A DNA stretch of 54,727 bases from Minisyncoccia bacterium (GTDB lineage: Bacteria > Patescibacteriota > Minisyncoccia > Phycocordibacterales > UBA918): NCBI GenBank assembly GCA_041750655.1, contig JBGSYZ010000010.1:1-54727 (forward strand), in the 5' to 3' direction. Numbering within the stretch: the stretch's first letter is position 1; each line of letters opens with the position of its first letter. Below are positions 1-4,988 of the stretch, one piece after another. The translations under genes were made by a program, and so were the position numbers. The notes below the pieces were generated by a model. It had not been told where the DNA came from, ran no database searches, and saw nothing but the letters and a program-made list of their open reading frames with translations.

Positions 1-1314
1 GAGATTTTCTTCGGAAGCGATAATTATGGCTTGGTTACTGTCTAAAATGAATTGACGAGAAAGTTCGAGCCAGCGATTACCTTTTCGTTCAAAATCTTTC
101 AATTTCTCTGAAAAATCAATTTTTTGGTTGAGGAGCTTTTGCTTTTTGGCGATATACTCCTCGCTCGTAATTGTGCTGTCCAAATGAGCGTCAAGAAGCC
201 TATCCAGCGTCTCCTCAACACTTTTGATCTGATTTTTCAGATTTTGAACGAAAAGCTCGTCAGAGTGGAAACTGCTCGCTTGTTCCTTTTCTAGTTCAGC
301 GAGCATGAATTCTTTCCACTCGGACGGCAAAGAAACTTTTTTGATAATGTCATTTGCTTGTTCGGCGAGGAATTCTTCGCGGATATATTTTTGTGTGCAA
401 ACACCTTTCTTTTTGGTACAGCGATAATAGGTATGACCTTTCTGCACTTCGCTGGTGATACCACAGCCGCATTCTTCACACAAAAATATTCCACGAAAAA
501 CATGCTTGTTAATTCCTCGCTTCATCGGGTGAGCATTCCTCGCCGATACTTCCGCGCATTTATCAAAAAGTTTCTTTGAAATCGCTGGCTCGTGCTTTCC
601 TTGGTAAAGTTCTTTGTTGAAAAGGAACATTCCATAATAAAAAGGATTTTTCAAAATCATTTGCGTGTTTGAAACGGTAAGAACTTTACCATTTTTAGAC
701 ACCAAGCCCTTTTGGGCAAGCAAATTCCTTGTATCTTTCAGAGAATAATTTCCAGTAGCATAGACTTCGAACATTTTCCTGACGAGGCGAAATCTCTCCA
801 CATCGGGAATAATTTTCTTGTTCAATTTATCATTTACATATCCCGTCGGAGCTTGACCACTTTGTTCGCCTCGTCTGACTTTTTGTCGAAGTCCGCGCTT
901 CACATTCTCTGAAAGATTATCTACATAGTATTTGCTCTGCCCAAAAGCAATATTTAACATAAACTTACCTTGTGGCGTAGCATCGAACCAAAACGTCGGG
1001 AATTTTAGCTCTTTAATAAGACCGAGGTCGCACAGATAGATTATCTTTCCACCATCAATACTATTTCTCGCCAATCTATCGGGATGCCAAGCTAAAATTC
1101 CCGACGCTTTGCCTTTTTCTATGAGCGAGAGCATATTGTTGAAAATAGGTCTGCCCGGCTCTTTCGCGGTTTGTGATTCAACAAAAGTTTCAACAATCTC
1201 CAACTGCTCTCGCGTGGCAAATTCTTTCAACTCGTCAATTTGCGATTCAATACTCAAAATCTGACGATCTGGTTCGTCGGTAGATTTACGAGCATAGAGA
1301 AAGAATTTGTTCAT
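1..1314 (-). CDS. Large serine recombinase (resolvase catalytic domain + recombinase domain + Zn ribbon + coiled coil), 3' end runs off the window
   Basis: Manual translation from ATG 1314, open for 438 codons to position 1: MNKFFLYARKSTDEPDRQILSIESQ (YxRxS catalytic Ser), WHPDRLARN, SENVKRG, LKNPFYYG, GKHEPAIS, CEECGC...YYRC...C Zn ribbon. Absent from the ORF track because there is no stop in the window. Confidence 0.95.
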   Translation of the reverse strand, partial: MNKFFLYARKSTDEPDRQILSIESQIDELKEFATREQLEIVETFVESQTAKEPGRPIFNNMLSLIEKGKASGILAWHPDRLARNSIDGGKIIYLCDLGLIKELKFPTFWFDATPQGKFMLNIAFGQSKYYVDNLSENVKRGLRQKVRRGEQSGQAPTGYVNDKLNKKIIPDVERFRLVRKMFEVYATGNYSLKDTRNLLAQKGLVSKNGKVLTVSNTQMILKNPFYYGMFLFNKELYQGKHEPAISKKLFDKCAEVSARNAHPMKRGINKHVFRGIFLCEECGCGITSEVQKGHTYYRCTKKKGVCTQKYIREEFLAEQANDIIKKVSLPSEWKEFMLAELEKEQASSFHSDELFVQNLKNQIKSVEETLDRLLDAHLDSTITSEEYIAKKQKLLNQKIDFSEKLKDFERKGNRWLELSRQFILDSNQAIIIASEENL

Positions 1315-1560
1315 AGAAAAAGGTTTATGTTAAATATTGATAATTATTCGCTTCCAGATTGGCTCGCAAAACGAAGTTTTGAATGATGTACTCATCATAA
1401 ACCCCCGCCTCGCGTCCCGCTCGCTTCTTTTGGATTTCAAAAACCCTTGGCGAATTCTGGCGGAAACCCCCGTCGCGTCGCTTTGCGACGCTCCGCATTT
1501 TGGCGAAAACGGCGATTCTATTTTGTTCAGGAGACACAGCCAACTCGTGCTAGCACGAGA
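1..1560. mobile_element. Putative self-folding serine-recombinase element (right part; left end outside the window)
   Basis: Recombinase CDS built of nested inverted repeats. The upstream flank 1340-1355 is complementary to the gene's 3' region 13-27, and 1400-1520 (+) reads like a recombinase C-terminus (NPRLASRSLLLDFKNPWRILAE). Confidence 0.65.
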
Positions 1561-1630
1561 TGCTTAGAAATAAGCTCTTAAAACTAGTTGAGATCTATAC
1601 AATCACAGAAGAAGCCGTAGGCTAATCCAG

Positions 1631-1662
1631 ACTAAAAAATACCCGTCAGGGTGTTTTTTAGT
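1631..1662 (+). terminator. Rho-independent terminator
   Basis: actaaaaaataccc-gtca-gggtgttttttagt hairpin with T-tract. Confidence 0.7.
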
Positions 1663-1714: not shown

Positions 1715-2284
1715 GTGATGGATAGAAACGATACTCAACTCGTAGCTGATTATTTAAATGGCGATGAAACTGCCCTTGGTTTTCTTGTAGACCGCTATAT
1801 TAAAGATGTGTATCGATTTGCACAGCAACTAACAAATGATGCTGGAGCGGCTGAGGATGTAACTCAGGAATCATTCGTAAAAGCTTGGAAGCATATTCGG
1901 AGCTACCGACAAGGAAGTAATTTTAAGACTTGGATTTTTACCATCACCCGCAACACAGCAATTGATTGGTTACGGAAGCAAAAAGAAATTGCTCTTTCTA
2001 GTTTTGAAAATGTTGAGGGGCAGAATATGTTACTAGAAACTATTGCCGACACTAATCCACTACCTGATGAATTGCTGGTAAGAGCAGAAAACACTGCTCA
2101 TGTTGTATTTTTACTTGAGCAACTTGATTCAAAATACCGTGACGTTCTTACGCTTCGGTACTCAAGCAATATGACATTTGAGGAGATTGGAGAAGTTTTA
2201 CGAAGACCATTACATACCATAAAGAGCCAACATCGGAGAGCATTAGTGATGCTCAGACGGCTACTCGAAGCTGAGCCAGCATAG
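1715..2284 (+). CDS. ECF (sigma-70 family) RNA polymerase sigma factor
   Basis: AEDVTQESFVKAW, FKTWIFTITRNTAIDWLRK (region 2) and region 4 HTH MTFEEIGEVL...TIKSQHRRA. Confidence 0.93.
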   Translation: MMDRNDTQLVADYLNGDETALGFLVDRYIKDVYRFAQQLTNDAGAAEDVTQESFVKAWKHIRSYRQGSNFKTWIFTITRNTAIDWLRKQKEIALSSFENVEGQNMLLETIADTNPLPDELLVRAENTAHVVFLLEQLDSKYRDVLTLRYSSNMTFEEIGEVLRRPLHTIKSQHRRALVMLRRLLEAEPA

Positions 2285-2290
2285 ATATGG

Positions 2291-2325
2291 AAAAGAGTGC
2301 ACCAAAATGCACTCTTTTTTCGTAT
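2291..2325 (+). promoter_or_regulatory. Putative ECF-type promoter (TGCACC-N17-CGTA) overlapping a hairpin
   Basis: tgcacc 2298-2303 and cgta 2321-2324; hairpin aaaagagtgca/tgcactctttt between the sigma and anti-sigma genes. Confidence 0.45.
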
Positions 2326-2332
2326 GGTATGT

Positions 2333-2713
2333 ATGCAAGATAATTTTGAGTTACCAGAAAGCCTCAGAGGCAATATTTTGTTAGGTATTCATACTGAGGA
2401 AAAAAGGCGTGCCAAGCGTCTACTAGTTGTGTCTGCAGTTGTTGCAACCAGTTCATTAGTTGGAATAATCGCATCGCTTAAATATGCGTTAGTGACACTC
2501 TATGAGTCGAGTTTTTATTCCTATGCCTCACTTCTGTTTTCAGATCCTGACGTTGTTACACAATACTGGAAAGAATTCAGTCTAGCATTGTTAGAGTCAC
2601 TTCCAGTGATAGGTATCGTATTGTGTCTCATCGCCGTGTTCGCATTACTTATGTCACTCCGTTTATTTGCACAGAATATGCGGTTTGGTTTTGCTCCAAC
2701 ATTCGCTAATTAA
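2333..2713 (+). CDS. Membrane protein, probable anti-sigma factor
   Basis: Directly follows the ECF sigma; short cytoplasmic N-terminus plus 2 TM helices; ATG 2333 preferred over 2297. Confidence 0.7.
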   Translation: MQDNFELPESLRGNILLGIHTEEKRRAKRLLVVSAVVATSSLVGIIASLKYALVTLYESSFYSYASLLFSDPDVVTQYWKEFSLALLESLPVIGIVLCLIAVFALLMSLRLFAQNMRFGFAPTFAN

Positions 2714-3227: not shown

Positions 3228-4988
3228 ATGAAACTTTTAAAAATTGTAACTAACTATAAATGGTATCTAATCGCAATTGTGATTTTTGCTGGAGGCATTT
3301 ATTACTACACACAAATTTATAATTCAGACAGTACTGATGCAGCACTATCTTTTTATGTAGTCGATACAGTTGAACGTGGTGAGGTAACGTCAGGTATTCT
3401 GACTACGGGTGACATTATTGCTGCCCAAAAACTTGATATAGATGTCTACAAACAGCTTAGTAGAATTGATGTTGTAAACATGGCTAATGGCAGTCATGTT
3501 GAAAAAGGTGACGTGCTCGTTTCTTTTGATAAAAGTGATGCCTACGTAGACACACAATCGTCCAAGGTTGCAGTGGCGGAGGCTCGACTTGCTTTGCAAG
3601 AAGAGCAAGAAAATGTGAATGATCCGAATACACAAATTAGAACCAAAGAAAATCAGATTGTAGGATATAACAAAACTATTATTGATACTGAACAAGATAT
3701 TAAAGATGCTTATAGAGATTTCTTAAATGAAGATTTAGAGGTGGTACCACACCCTGATAAATCAAGTGCTCTTGACGATAGAACCGAGCCAGTCTTATCT
3801 GGAAGATATGTGAGTGATACTCAAGGACAGTACGTTATTGAAGTGTATGCTTCGGCTGCAGATTCTGGATACAGTTATCGCGTAAGCGGTTTGGAGTCAA
3901 TGACGGATTCAGTAATTTTTGGTAAAGCTGTTGACTTGGGTAGTCGTGGTCTAAAAATCACGTTCCCGAGTGACACAAAGACAAGGGATAAATGGGTTGT
4001 GTATGTGCCAAATACAGAGATTGCTACATATTCTGAAACAAAGCGAGTATATGAAGAGAGTGTTGCAGCGTTAGAAAAGACAATTGCTGATACGAAGGTA
4101 AATCTAGCAAATGCTGCACAAGATCTTGCTGACCTAAAACAAACTGACTCCAGTAGTTACCGTGATTTGAATGTAGAGAAAGCCGAATCTAGTTTGTCAG
4201 AAGCACAGCAACGTTTGTCTAAGAACTACGATGTTGTACAAGAGCGAGATATCGTCGCACCTTTTTCAGGAACAGTGGAAGGAATGGAGAACGTTGTCGC
4301 TGGAGCGACCCCAACTGGTGGTACAAATGATTCTATAAATTTAGGTACACTTATTTCCGATGAGTTTCTAACAACATTCACGCTTGGTGCTACCGACGTT
4401 GCGAAAGTTTCGGTGGGACAAAAGGTAAAAGTGACCGTTACATCATTTGCAGAGCAGCCGGTATTCACCGCTGAAATTACACAAATAAGTTCACTGCCTG
4501 AAGCCAGTGGAGTCGCACAGTACAAGGTGCAAGCTTTGATTGAATATGACCGAGCTGCTGCAGAGTTGGTACTTCGTGAAGGAATGTTGGCTGACATAGA
4601 AGTGGTAGAAAAAGAGAGTTCAGATGCACTACGTGTACCAACTTCGGCTATTACGTATGAGCAAGGTGTTCCTAAGGTAACAATTATAGATAAGCTAACT
4701 GAAGAACAACAGCAGCAGGCAAATCGCATGGGTATTGTTCGAACAGAAGGTACAACTATTGCAACATACGATGTTGAGGTAGAGCTTGGTATCGTGGGTC
4801 AATATTATGTTGAAATAATAAGTGGCTTGTCTGAAGGAGATATTATCGTGTCTTCACAACTTTCAGATACGGCGACTGATTCTGTTGTACAGCAAGCAGG
4901 CTTCGGCCCTCCAGGTGGAGGGCAACGGCCAACTGGATCACCGACGGCTGGAAGTGGTGCGCCGGCAGGTAGGGCACCAAGTAACTAG
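3228..4988 (+). CDS. Efflux periplasmic adaptor / membrane fusion protein (MacA/HlyD-like)
   Basis: N-terminal TM, VEKGDVL lipoyl half-motif, coiled coils, IVAPFSGTV, VPTSAI, EIISGLSEGD. Confidence 0.9.
   Translation: MKLLKIVTNYKWYLIAIVIFAGGIYYYTQIYNSDSTDAALSFYVVDTVERGEVTSGILTTGDIIAAQKLDIDVYKQLSRIDVVNMANGSHVEKGDVLVSFDKSDAYVDTQSSKVAVAEARLALQEEQENVNDPNTQIRTKENQIVGYNKTIIDTEQDIKDAYRDFLNEDLEVVPHPDKSSALDDRTEPVLSGRYVSDTQGQYVIEVYASAADSGYSYRVSGLESMTDSVIFGKAVDLGSRGLKITFPSDTKTRDKWVVYVPNTEIATYSETKRVYEESVAALEKTIADTKVNLANAAQDLADLKQTDSSSYRDLNVEKAESSLSEAQQRLSKNYDVVQERDIVAPFSGTVEGMENVVAGATPTGGTNDSINLGTLISDEFLTTFTLGATDVAKVSVGQKVKVTVTSFAEQPVFTAEITQISSLPEASGVAQYKVQALIEYDRAAAELVLREGMLADIEVVEKESSDALRVPTSAITYEQGVPKVTIIDKLTEEQQQQANRMGIVRTEGTTIATYDVEVELGIVGQYYVEIISGLSEGDIIVSSQLSDTATDSVVQQAGFGPPGGGQRPTGSPTAGSGAPAGRAPSN

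What the first reader, a model, noticed from the sequence alone, without database searches (positions are those of the whole stretch)
1..1355. Serine recombinase gene whose entire coding sequence folds into one nested fold-back structure
Seen: the CDS is tiled by nested inverted repeats. Perfect pairs: 28-35/701-708, 66-78/580-592, 81-97/239-255, 108-118/230-240, 127-135/211-219, 263-271/313-321, 273-280/298-305, 362-373/535-546, 602-614/679-691, 709-718/938-947, 733-746/904-917, 781-791/865-875, 948-964/1323-1339, 994-1010/1090-1106, 1112-1124/1311-1323, 1125-1133/1205-1213, 1135-1144/1188-1197 and 1218-1228/1299-1309. One-bulge pairs: 13-27/1340-1355, 39-49/690-701 and 328-347/560-578. They are essentially mutually compatible and cover the gene end to end while it still encodes an intact recombinase. 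The stems are Watson-Crick, so both strands can fold, which points to ssDNA rather than mRNA. Known: large serine recombinases normally act on dsDNA att sites, while folded-ssDNA substrates are known for tyrosine recombinases (integron attC, CTXphi attP). Inference: a mobile element that exists or transfers as a compact folded single strand.
Basis: partly seen in the sequence, partly recalled or inferred. Interest (0 to 1): 0.95.

Follow-up and report, generated by a model that had tools for sequence, protein, structure and literature searches.

The report
Self-folding serine-recombinase mobile element
A 1.7-kb mobile element made of one recombinase gene sits beside a tRNA gene, and its whole DNA, protein-coding part included, is kept by selection as a nested set of hairpins, a design seen in hundreds of related copies and described in none of the papers searched.

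Summary
All 18 "perfect" inverted-repeat pairs are exact, the three bulged pairs fit, and no two of the 21 helices cross. The coding sequence folds 13.7 SD better than synonymous-codon shuffles. Control genes show nothing comparable.

The gene is a large serine recombinase on the minus strand. It is the sole gene of a 1704-bp insertion at the 3' end of tRNA-Gln. The insertion has perfect 127-bp terminal inverted repeats, and a same-genus genome has an empty site.

The fold is conserved. All 72 homologous genes counted (54-99% amino-acid identity) are rich in inverted repeats. The stems covary (746 double changes against about 350 in controls). Synonymous sites diverge 3.6% in stems against 19% in loops. 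A 43%-identical paralogue at tRNA-Glu has its own stems at the same positions.

Mismatches show no G·U bias on either strand, which favours a DNA-level fold over an RNA fold.

A single-stranded DNA stage remains an inference. No circles, ssDNA or strand asymmetry were seen.

The parts
1..1314 (-). Large serine recombinase CDS, codons 1-438 of a 496-codon ORF. The rest lies on contig C14 (L002 1500..1324) and ends inside the 3' end of tRNA-Gln.
   Evidence: ORF. Pfam Resolvase 1.1e-21, Recombinase 5.2e-14, Zn_ribbon_recom 7.9e-8.
13..1355 (.). Outer four-way junction with no unpaired base between helices: 13-27/1340-1355, 28-35/701-708, 709-718/938-947, 948-964/1323-1339.
66..592 (.). Best-conserved domain, a second near-perfect four-way junction: 66-80/578-592, 80-97/239-256, 259-271/313-325, 327-347/560-579.
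   Evidence: exact inverted repeats at these alignment columns in 61, 63, 47 and 67 of 72 sequences; helix 10 is 93% paired and helix 14 is 88% paired with 14 of 17 pairs compensated; the same helices occur in the 43%-identical paralogue.
709..947 (.). Middle domain: 709-718/938-947, 733-746/904-917, 781-791/865-875.
948..1339 (.). 5' domain: 948-964/1323-1339, 994-1010/1090-1106, 1112-1124/1311-1323, 1125-1133/1205-1213, 1135-1144/1188-1197, 1218-1228/1299-1309. It spans the start codon and 25 nt of leader.
1315..1399 (-). Leader between the upstream arm and the ATG. It carries the 3' arms of two outer helices.
1400..1526 (.). Upstream terminal inverted-repeat arm, 127 nt, 100% complementary to L002 1338-1464. 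That partner arm also encodes the recombinase C-terminal tail.
   Evidence: 127/127. (126 of 127 positions pair in the fold). (arms co-vary between copies).
1526..1542 (+). 17-nt spacer TTCAGGAGACACAGCCA. Its last 6 nt (1537-1542, CAGCCA) repeat the last 6 nt of tRNA-Gln, which is the att core and direct repeat. In a circular form the spacer would be the loop between the two arms.
1543..1640 (+). Host DNA that directly follows tRNA-Gln in the empty site of a same-genus genome.
   Evidence: 86 of 95 identical from CAGCCA onward; tRNA-Gln abuts it in L085.

Best explanation
The region is a minimal site-specific integrative element of 1704 bp. It has one large serine recombinase (LSR) gene, perfect 127-bp terminal inverted repeats and a 17-nt spacer. 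The spacer carries a 6-bp core (CAGCCA) identical to the 3' end of its target, tRNA-Gln. These points are shown. Natural selection also keeps the whole element self-complementary at the DNA level. A branched, fully nested fold runs through the coding sequence, is closed by the terminal arms and is conserved with compensatory changes across a large family that targets several tRNAs. This too is shown. My inference is that the fold works when the element is single-stranded, on either strand. That could be after DNA uptake by these competence-dependent bacteria, or in another ssDNA intermediate. Folding would bring the two ends together into a 127-bp duplex stem with the att core in or beside its loop. 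It would shield the strand and offer duplex segments for priming, transcription and recombinase binding, so that a gene-sized element can establish itself in a new cell without homology. Regular passage through such a hairpin state would also explain why the two arms evolve in concert.
For: Element and target: empty site in G007. The arms are 127/127 identical. The ~1.7-kb unit alone is shared between genomes. 27 of 30 loci have a tRNA (Gln 16, Ser 8, Trp 2, Asn 1) abutting the downstream arm. 22 of 24 two-flank loci have flanking inverted repeats. Selection on the fold: z=-13.7 against synonymous shuffles. All 72 homologous genes counted have 10-31 inverted repeats of 9 nt or more, against mostly 0-13 (up to 27) in flanks. 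72.2% of cells are paired against 34-46% when the partner is slid. There are 746 double-change cells against 303-434 slid and 348+-22 shuffled, with 0 of 500 shuffles reaching the observed value. Synonymous third-position divergence is 3.6% in stems against 19.0% in loops in 17 close copies. The paralogue at 51% nucleotide identity has the same helices, with 11 of 17 pairs compensated in one helix. DNA rather than RNA: G.T on the sense strand 971 against G.T on the antisense strand 950 against other mismatches 2686. Isolated mismatches inside helices number 25, 19 and 55 in the same three classes. Both strands fold equally as circular ssDNA, at -495 and -507 kcal/mol with 73-74% paired, against -160+-7 for shuffles. 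Concerted arms: 425 co-varying against 54 discordant site comparisons, and 0-1 within-copy mismatches in 6 of 7 copies. The spacer occurs in both orientations relative to the gene.
Against: No single-stranded or circular form was seen. The public data were contigs only, every listed joint had 26 nt or fewer on its shorter side, and short contigs end in the arms rather than closing into circles. The substitution spectrum is exactly strand-symmetric (C>T 54, G>A 54), so there is no deamination signature of a long-lived single strand. Serine recombinases are known (recalled, not tested here) to cut double-stranded sites in concert, and no folded-ssDNA substrate is known for them. Among close copies, uncompensated single changes (3-14 per copy) outnumber compensated ones (0-1) in the internal stems. 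Those stems are therefore held by purifying selection, not renewed at each transfer. The element is covered in RNA-library contigs, so transcripts may exist. A promoter-like site outside the upstream arm (no more than chance) would put both arms into one RNA.
Confidence: 0.42

Rival explanations
1. Self-maintaining coding palindromes. Arm-to-arm conversion (template switching, repair of extruded hairpins) keeps inverted repeats perfect whether or not they have a function, as proposed for the perfect inverted repeats inside mitochondrial genes of Nematomorpha. Protein-level selection on both arms would then slow change in the stems.
For: The terminal arms evolve in concert. The stems are perfect Watson-Crick runs with no wobble excess. 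The Discussion of PMC6649704 (abstract and Discussion read) argues for exactly this mechanism. Conversion combined with coding constraint on the partner arm could by itself lower synonymous divergence in stems.
Against: Helix positions and junction geometry are conserved down to 43% amino-acid identity, whereas the Nematomorpha repeats are gained and lost. The helices form one nested architecture that closes the whole element, with two junctions that have almost no unpaired bases. Close copies show single, unconverted changes rather than doubles in the internal stems. Neighbouring genes and a distant LSR in the same kind of genomes lack the feature.
Confidence: 0.2
2. A double-stranded DNA function. 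The arms plus spacer form an unusually long palindromic attP. The inverted cores make the recombinase unit an invertible segment. The internal repeats serve DNA topology, cruciform extrusion or protein binding during synapsis, with no free single strand.
For: In 20 of 39 copies examined the core lies inverted at both ends of the recombinase unit, so the LSR would invert it rather than excise it. Composite islands have cargo units bounded by 156-202-bp inverted repeats ending in the same 17-mer. The strand symmetry of all signals fits duplex DNA.
Against: More than 20 different short stems with loops of up to several hundred nt are not expected to extrude from, or be read in, duplex DNA (inference). 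Covariation preserves pairing, not sequence, which argues against protein-binding motifs.
Confidence: 0.18
3. An RNA structure. The recombinase mRNA, or a longer transcript including both arms, folds to limit translation, set its half-life or be cut by RNase III as autoregulation.
For: The fold is very strong with RNA parameters. The element is covered by contigs of 6 metatranscriptome runs. A promoter-like site lies outside the upstream arm.
Against: G.U pairs are no commoner than A.C mismatches, and non-wobble mismatches dominate. The antisense strand folds as well as the sense strand. No Rfam family matches. The promoter-like count equals chance. RNA-library contigs cannot show transcription and may hold DNA. 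A 127-bp perfect duplex inside the coding end would expose the mRNA to cleavage (inference).
Confidence: 0.15
4. An artefact of assembly, or a planted or synthetic sequence.
For: The gene lies at a contig end, and many copies lie at contig ends.
Against: The window sequence is in public runs of 17 studies. 541 relatives occur in independent assemblies, including an isolate genome. The contig breaks are explained by the long perfect arms.
Confidence: 0.01

Closest known systems
Large serine recombinase integrases of phages and islands (phiC31, Bxb1, A118/LI, TP901-1, CcrAB, XisF)
   Same: Resolvase, recombinase and zinc-ribbon domain order. Site-specific insertion with a short core identity and a reconstituted target.
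   Different: Only remote sequence similarity: NCBIfam CcrB and XisF scores are far below their cut-offs, phage hits are under 30% identical, and PDB matches cover only N-terminal domains. Known att sites are (recalled) 40-50-bp imperfect dyads. Here the arms are 115-134-bp perfect inverted repeats, the element carries nothing but the recombinase, and the gene itself is a conserved fold.
Folded single-stranded recombination sites: integron attC, CTXphi attP(+), IS200/IS605 ends (recalled)
   Same: Pairing is conserved rather than sequence, and the hairpins are part of a mobile element's recombination apparatus.
   Different: Those use tyrosine or HUH enzymes, hairpins of about 60-150 nt and one defined strand. 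Here the enzyme is a serine recombinase, the fold covers 1.7 kb including the coding sequence, and no strand bias is seen.
[quoted passage not shown]
   Same: Perfect inverted repeats inside functional protein-coding genes, both arms coding, no excess of imperfect repeats.
   Different: Those repeats are scattered, gained and lost between species and not nested into one structure. Here positions are conserved to 43% identity and the helices close the whole element.
Rod-like or branched coding RNA replicons: hepatitis delta virus, viroid-like Obelisks (recalled)
   Same: Genome-wide self-complementarity overlapping the single ORF of a minimal selfish element.
   Different: Those are RNA circles with no DNA stage. 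This one is chromosomal DNA with an integrase and shows no G.U signature.
Hairpin-ended replicons with flip/flop termini (parvovirus/AAV ITRs, poxvirus telomeres) and single-strand origins or ssDNA promoters of plasmids (recalled)
   Same: Long perfect terminal palindromes kept identical. The loop sequence is found in both orientations. Folded DNA could mimic duplex signals.
   Different: No Rep/HUH nickase, protelomerase or replication gene is present. The only ORF is the LSR.
Tycheposons and other tRNA-targeting islands of streamlined genomes (10.1101/2020.12.28.424599; passages only)
   Same: Integration at tRNA genes in small genomes. A minority use large serine recombinases. Cargo modules lie next to the integrase.
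   Different: In the passages read they are reported with replication genes and mostly tyrosine recombinases. A term search of that text found 'hairpin' nowhere and 'inverted repeat' only in the reference list.

Membership tests
Large serine recombinase (serine integrase) | N-terminal resolvase catalytic domain with the serine nucleophile | tested here: met
   PF00239, residues 5-150, E=1.1e-21. YARKS is visible at residues 7-11.
Large serine recombinase (serine integrase) | Recombinase domain followed by a zinc-ribbon domain | tested here: met
   PF07508 residues 177-256 and PF13408 residues 273-316, both above their cut-offs.
Large serine recombinase (serine integrase) | Concerted double-strand exchange between duplex attP and attB at a 2-bp crossover | not testable with these tools
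   Only the 6-bp shared core (CAGCCA) is defined, from the filled and empty sites.
tRNA-site integrative element | Insertion at a tRNA 3' end, bounded by a direct repeat, with an empty site in a relative | tested here: met
   in G007 tRNA-Gln is followed directly by window 1543 onward. CAGCCA occurs at L002 1333-1338 and at window 1537-1542.
tRNA-site integrative element | Excised circular form | tested here: inconclusive
   only contigs were available, and no junction or circular contig was seen.
Folded-ssDNA recombination substrates (attC, CTXphi, IS200/IS605) | Tyrosine or HUH recombinase | tested here: not met
   serine recombinase. No other ORF with a family match lies in the element.
Folded-ssDNA recombination substrates (attC, CTXphi, IS200/IS605) | Structure conserved through compensatory change | tested here: met
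Folded-ssDNA recombination substrates (attC, CTXphi, IS200/IS605) | One defined strand is the substrate | tested here: inconclusive
   There is no strand bias in wobble or substitutions, and both strands fold alike.
Structured RNA (Rfam family or regulatory mRNA fold) | G.U pairs tolerated far more than A.C, or a match to a curated family | tested here: not met
   971 against 950; 25 against 19, with 55 other mismatches; no family other than tRNA.
Conversion-maintained coding palindromes (Nematomorpha type) | Perfect inverted repeats inside functional coding sequence | tested here: met
Conversion-maintained coding palindromes (Nematomorpha type) | Repeats dynamic, with positions not conserved between species | tested here: not met
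   the same helices occur in up to 67 of 72 homologues and in the 43%-identical paralogue.
Insertion sequence | Terminal inverted repeats plus a transposase of a known IS family | tested here: not met
   Terminal repeats are present. The IS607 model scores 29 bits against a cut-off of 110, and no DDE domain is found.
Hairpin-ended replicons (flip/flop termini) | Terminal loop in two orientations, plus a nickase or telomere resolvase | tested here: inconclusive
   The 17-mer has one orientation in the window and the opposite in 20 other copies. No such enzyme gene lies in the element.

The most novel reading that the evidence does not exclude
These are gene-sized selfish DNAs whose life cycle includes a folded single-stranded stage, a DNA counterpart of rod-like coding RNA replicons. 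A serine recombinase would act on, or be expressed from, a hairpin-form att site created by folding. That would let a 1.7-kb element cross phylum boundaries through DNA uptake alone, and recruit cargo cassettes that are likewise bounded by long hairpin arms ending in the same 17-nt site.
Probability: 0.3. Interest if true: 0.95.

Novelty: new variant of a known kind. Interest (0 to 1): 0.87.

Why it matters
Selection at synonymous sites and covariation across a whole protein-coding gene, at the DNA level, has no described counterpart in bacterial mobile elements in the six literature searches run here. The family is common. 74 of 401 evenly drawn genomes of the phylum carry a relative, and 541 relatives were confirmed in one genome per species. 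Near-identical copies also occur in unrelated phyla, one of them a cultured isolate, so the question can be tested at the bench.

If the fold marks a single-stranded stage, three things follow:
- It would widen what serine recombinases are thought to do.
- It would explain how minimal elements spread among bacteria that rely on DNA uptake.
- It would offer compact, self-contained integration modules.

If instead the palindromes maintain themselves, the family is the clearest bacterial case of that process acting inside a functional gene. Either way, the long perfect arms explain a recurrent source of contig breaks next to tRNA genes in these metagenome-assembled genomes.

Tried and rejected
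- **Rfam**: an E-value-threshold scan of both contig ends found only the tRNA and a weak terminator-like hit.
- **Promoter and terminator scan**: one promoter-like site (window 1543-1515, minus strand), equal to the shuffle mean of 1.0. No transcription start can be inferred.
- **Sequencing runs**: all four runs laid were Logan contigs.
  - The five listed joints (48>562, 105>234, 258>408, 441>556, 1101>1277) have 22-26 nt on the shorter side. They lie in a repeat-rich stretch, and I do not use them.
  - Depth over the element sums several variants.
  - Coverage in RNA-library contigs cannot show transcription.
  - Parts without cover are not interpreted.
- **Circular contigs**: of 4 short or end-placed contigs, two begin inside an arm, one contains both arms and one has no terminal repeat. 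None closes on itself.
- **Strand asymmetry of substitutions**: none.
- **Synteny search in 30 relatives by DNA**: 3 relatives matched. Only one (G007) was informative, and it gave the empty site.
- **The majority arrangement**: I tried to derive it (core inverted at both ends of the recombinase unit) from the window's arrangement by a single LSR integration, inversion or antiparallel exchange at a palindromic dinucleotide. None of the schemes worked out by hand reproduces the observed junctions. It stays unexplained.
- **Literature**: six searches found no description of this family or of a gene-wide fold in a recombinase gene. Only listings were seen, except PMC6649704 (abstract and Discussion) and 10.1101/2020.12.28.424599 (three passages).
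  - Published catalogues of LSRs and their att sites (recalled, not read; supplements are closed) may list members.
- **Rows dropped**:
  - Of the 80 loci, 8 partial matches (L022, L023, L025, L040, L046, L049, L050, L054) were left out of all gene-wide counts.
  - L009 was left out of the alignments because of an in-frame stop.
  - One search examined 24 of the loci with both flanks, and one search examined 30 loci.
Full report
**Observation.**
- The 21 helices never cross, four pairs of arms overlap by 1-2 nt, and 511 of 1355 bases lie in arms. About 0.02 repeats of 13 nt or more are expected by chance, and 7 are present.
- Window 1-1355 holds 33 exact inverted repeats of 9 nt or more, against 0-13 in the 39 other blocks of equal size.
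- The DNA fold of 1-1360 uses the stems.
- With RNA parameters the sense coding sequence reaches -455.6 kcal/mol. Forty synonymous-codon shuffles give -329.6+-9.2 (z=-13.7) and 40 dinucleotide shuffles give -323.3+-10.8 (z=-12.3).
- Controls are flat: another ORF of the window gives z=-0.8 and a distant LSR gene gives z=-0.7 with no repeat of 9 nt or more.

**What the gene is and where it ends.**
- The ORF lies on the minus strand (1314..1) and runs off the window, which is the start of contig C10. Its first 46 nt equal the last 46 nt of contig C14.
- Across that overlap the ORF continues to 496 codons and stops inside the 3' end of a tRNA-Gln gene. Homologous loci are continuous over the same point.
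- Pfam finds the resolvase, recombinase and zinc-ribbon domains of a large serine recombinase.
- Characterised relatives are remote.

**The element.**
- A 127-nt stretch next to the tRNA (L002 1338-1464) is the perfect reverse complement of window 1400-1526. The nested fold therefore continues outward into one long closing stem.
- In a genome of the same genus (G007) the tRNA-Gln gene is followed directly by the sequence that starts at window 1543 (86 of 95 identical).
- The window genome thus carries a 1704-bp insertion. In order, it reads: tRNA...CAGCCA, arm, recombinase gene (reverse), arm, an 11-nt spacer, a second CAGCCA (window 1537-1542), then host DNA.
- Joined into a circle, the two arms would flank a 17-nt loop that carries the core.
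- Folded as circular single-stranded DNA, either strand pairs 73-74% of its bases at about -500 kcal/mol, against -160+-7 for six shuffles. 126 of 127 arm positions pair with each other.

**The family.**
- A scan of one genome per species found 541 relatives. The best 80 (54-99% identity) are mostly Patescibacteria MAGs, but also include a Schleiferia thermophila isolate and MAGs of other phyla.
- In an even draw of the phylum, 74 of 401 genomes have a relative at E<=1e-80, with up to four per genome.
- 27 of 30 loci examined have a tRNA gene (Gln 16, Ser 8, Trp 2, Asn 1) abutting the downstream arm. 22 of 24 have the flanking inverted repeat, usually 77-134 bp at 93-100% identity.
- Similarity between copies in different genomes is confined to the unit itself.
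- Three copies from a Bacteroidota isolate, a Thermodesulfovibrio MAG and a Patescibacteria MAG share about 1.72 kb at 98.4-99.6% identity with unrelated flanks.
- The window sequence occurs in public runs of 17 studies. It is therefore natural and widespread.

**Is the fold conserved?**
- All 72 full-length homologues have 10-31 exact repeats of 9 nt or more. Their flanks mostly have 0-13, a few more, and the enrichment is confined to the element.
- On a 72-sequence alignment the window's 180 pairs are 72.2% paired, against 34-46% when partners are slid. There are 746 double-change cells against 303-434 slid and 348+-22 shuffled, with 0 of 500 shuffles reaching the observed value.
- Individual helices switch cleanly, for example G-C 32 against A-U 29, or U-A 32 against C-G 30.
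- Exact repeats sit at the same alignment columns in up to 67 of 72 sequences. They outline a second four-way junction at window 66-592.
- In 17 close copies, synonymous third positions differ at 3.6% in stems and 19.0% in loops.
- A paralogue in the same genome, next to tRNA-Glu, has only 193 of 444 identical residues. It has 115-bp perfect arms and its own 9-19-nt stems at homologous positions. One helix has 11 of 17 pairs compensated.

**DNA or RNA?**
- Non-Watson-Crick cells split into 971 G.T on the sense strand, 950 G.T on the antisense strand and 2686 others.
- Isolated mismatches inside otherwise perfect helices split 25, 19 and 55 in the same three classes.
- A functional RNA helix set would be expected (recalled) to favour G.U strongly. 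Both strands also fold equally, and no Rfam family matches.
- I read this as a constraint on DNA pairing, but transcripts cannot be excluded.

**How the arms behave.**
- Between seven copies the arms differ at up to 51 sites. Within six of the seven copies they differ at 0-1 site. Summed over the pairwise comparisons, this gives 425 co-varying sites against 54 discordant ones.
- The outer 20 nt are the most variable part and are still perfectly matched.
- The internal stems behave differently. Close copies show few changes and almost no compensations, which indicates purifying selection rather than frequent renewal.

**Junction variants and cargo.**
- In 20 of 39 copies examined the 17-mer lies at the same distance upstream of the gene but in the opposite orientation to the window's. 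The core then forms the first bases of the arm and pairs with the tRNA end.
- In two such loci a second, inverted 17-mer lies about 2.0-2.4 kb further out. It sits at the end of a cargo unit bounded by 156-202-bp inverted repeats. Beyond it, host DNA follows the same spacer-core junction as in the window.
- The window copy is thus the minimal form.
- I could not derive the common arrangement from it by one recombination step.

**Interpretation.**
- Shown: a minimal LSR integrative element, and a DNA-level, selected, family-wide fold closed by concertedly evolving arms.
- Inferred: the fold acts in a single-stranded state. The strand symmetry would fit uptake of either strand by transformation. 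That these bacteria depend on DNA uptake is recalled, not tested.
- Against the inference: no single-stranded or circular form was seen, there is no strand asymmetry, and there is no precedent for serine recombinases on folded strands.
- Self-maintaining coding palindromes, as discussed for Nematomorpha mitochondria, remain a live rival. So do a duplex palindromic att site with inversion, and an RNA role.

Noticed in passing
G000 contig C12, L093 1241-3008: A second, 43%-identical fold-back recombinase element lies in the same genome next to tRNA-Glu(ctc). It has 115-bp perfect arms and its own nested stems.
   Followed up: yes
L069, L067, L070: The same ~1.72-kb element occurs at 98.4-99.6% identity in a cultured Bacteroidota isolate (Schleiferia thermophila DSM 21410), a Thermodesulfovibrio MAG and a Patescibacteria MAG, with unrelated flanks. 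This points to very recent cross-phylum transfer, or to binning error for the two MAGs.
   Followed up: partly
L048 371-2808; L028 723-2785; L075 1295-2845; L076 1369-2893 and 4423-6960: Cargo units next to the recombinase unit are each bounded by 88-241-bp inverted repeats. They carry an HTH protein, an HD-domain protein, a trypsin-like peptidase and unknowns. An OLD/AbiEii-like ATPase lies beside one. In L048 and L028 the repeats end in the same 17-nt site.
   Followed up: partly
window 1543-1640: About 100 nt downstream of the tRNA-Gln site is 91% identical in a same-genus genome, although the neighbouring genes gave no DNA match there. It begins with a perfect 16-nt palindrome and has no Rfam match. 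It may be a small RNA or a processing/terminator region.
   Followed up: partly
window 1337-1567 (+): A 76-codon ORF on the opposite strand repeats the recombinase's C-terminal tail peptide, because the upstream arm is the reverse complement of the coding downstream arm. It is probably a by-product of the repeat.
   Followed up: no
window 1715-2713: A 189-aa ORF that by eye resembles an ECF-type sigma factor is followed by a 138-aa ORF that looks membrane-spanning and could be an anti-sigma factor. Both are host genes next to the insertion. No family search was run on either.
   Followed up: no
L004 2785-2916 vs 4351-4482: One copy has arms that differ at 7 sites, whereas the other six copies compared have 0-1. 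It may have been caught before homogenisation or after recombination with another copy.
   Followed up: no
many loci: Relatives very often lie 200-470 nt from a contig end. The long perfect arms appear to break short-read assemblies next to tRNA genes.
   Followed up: partly
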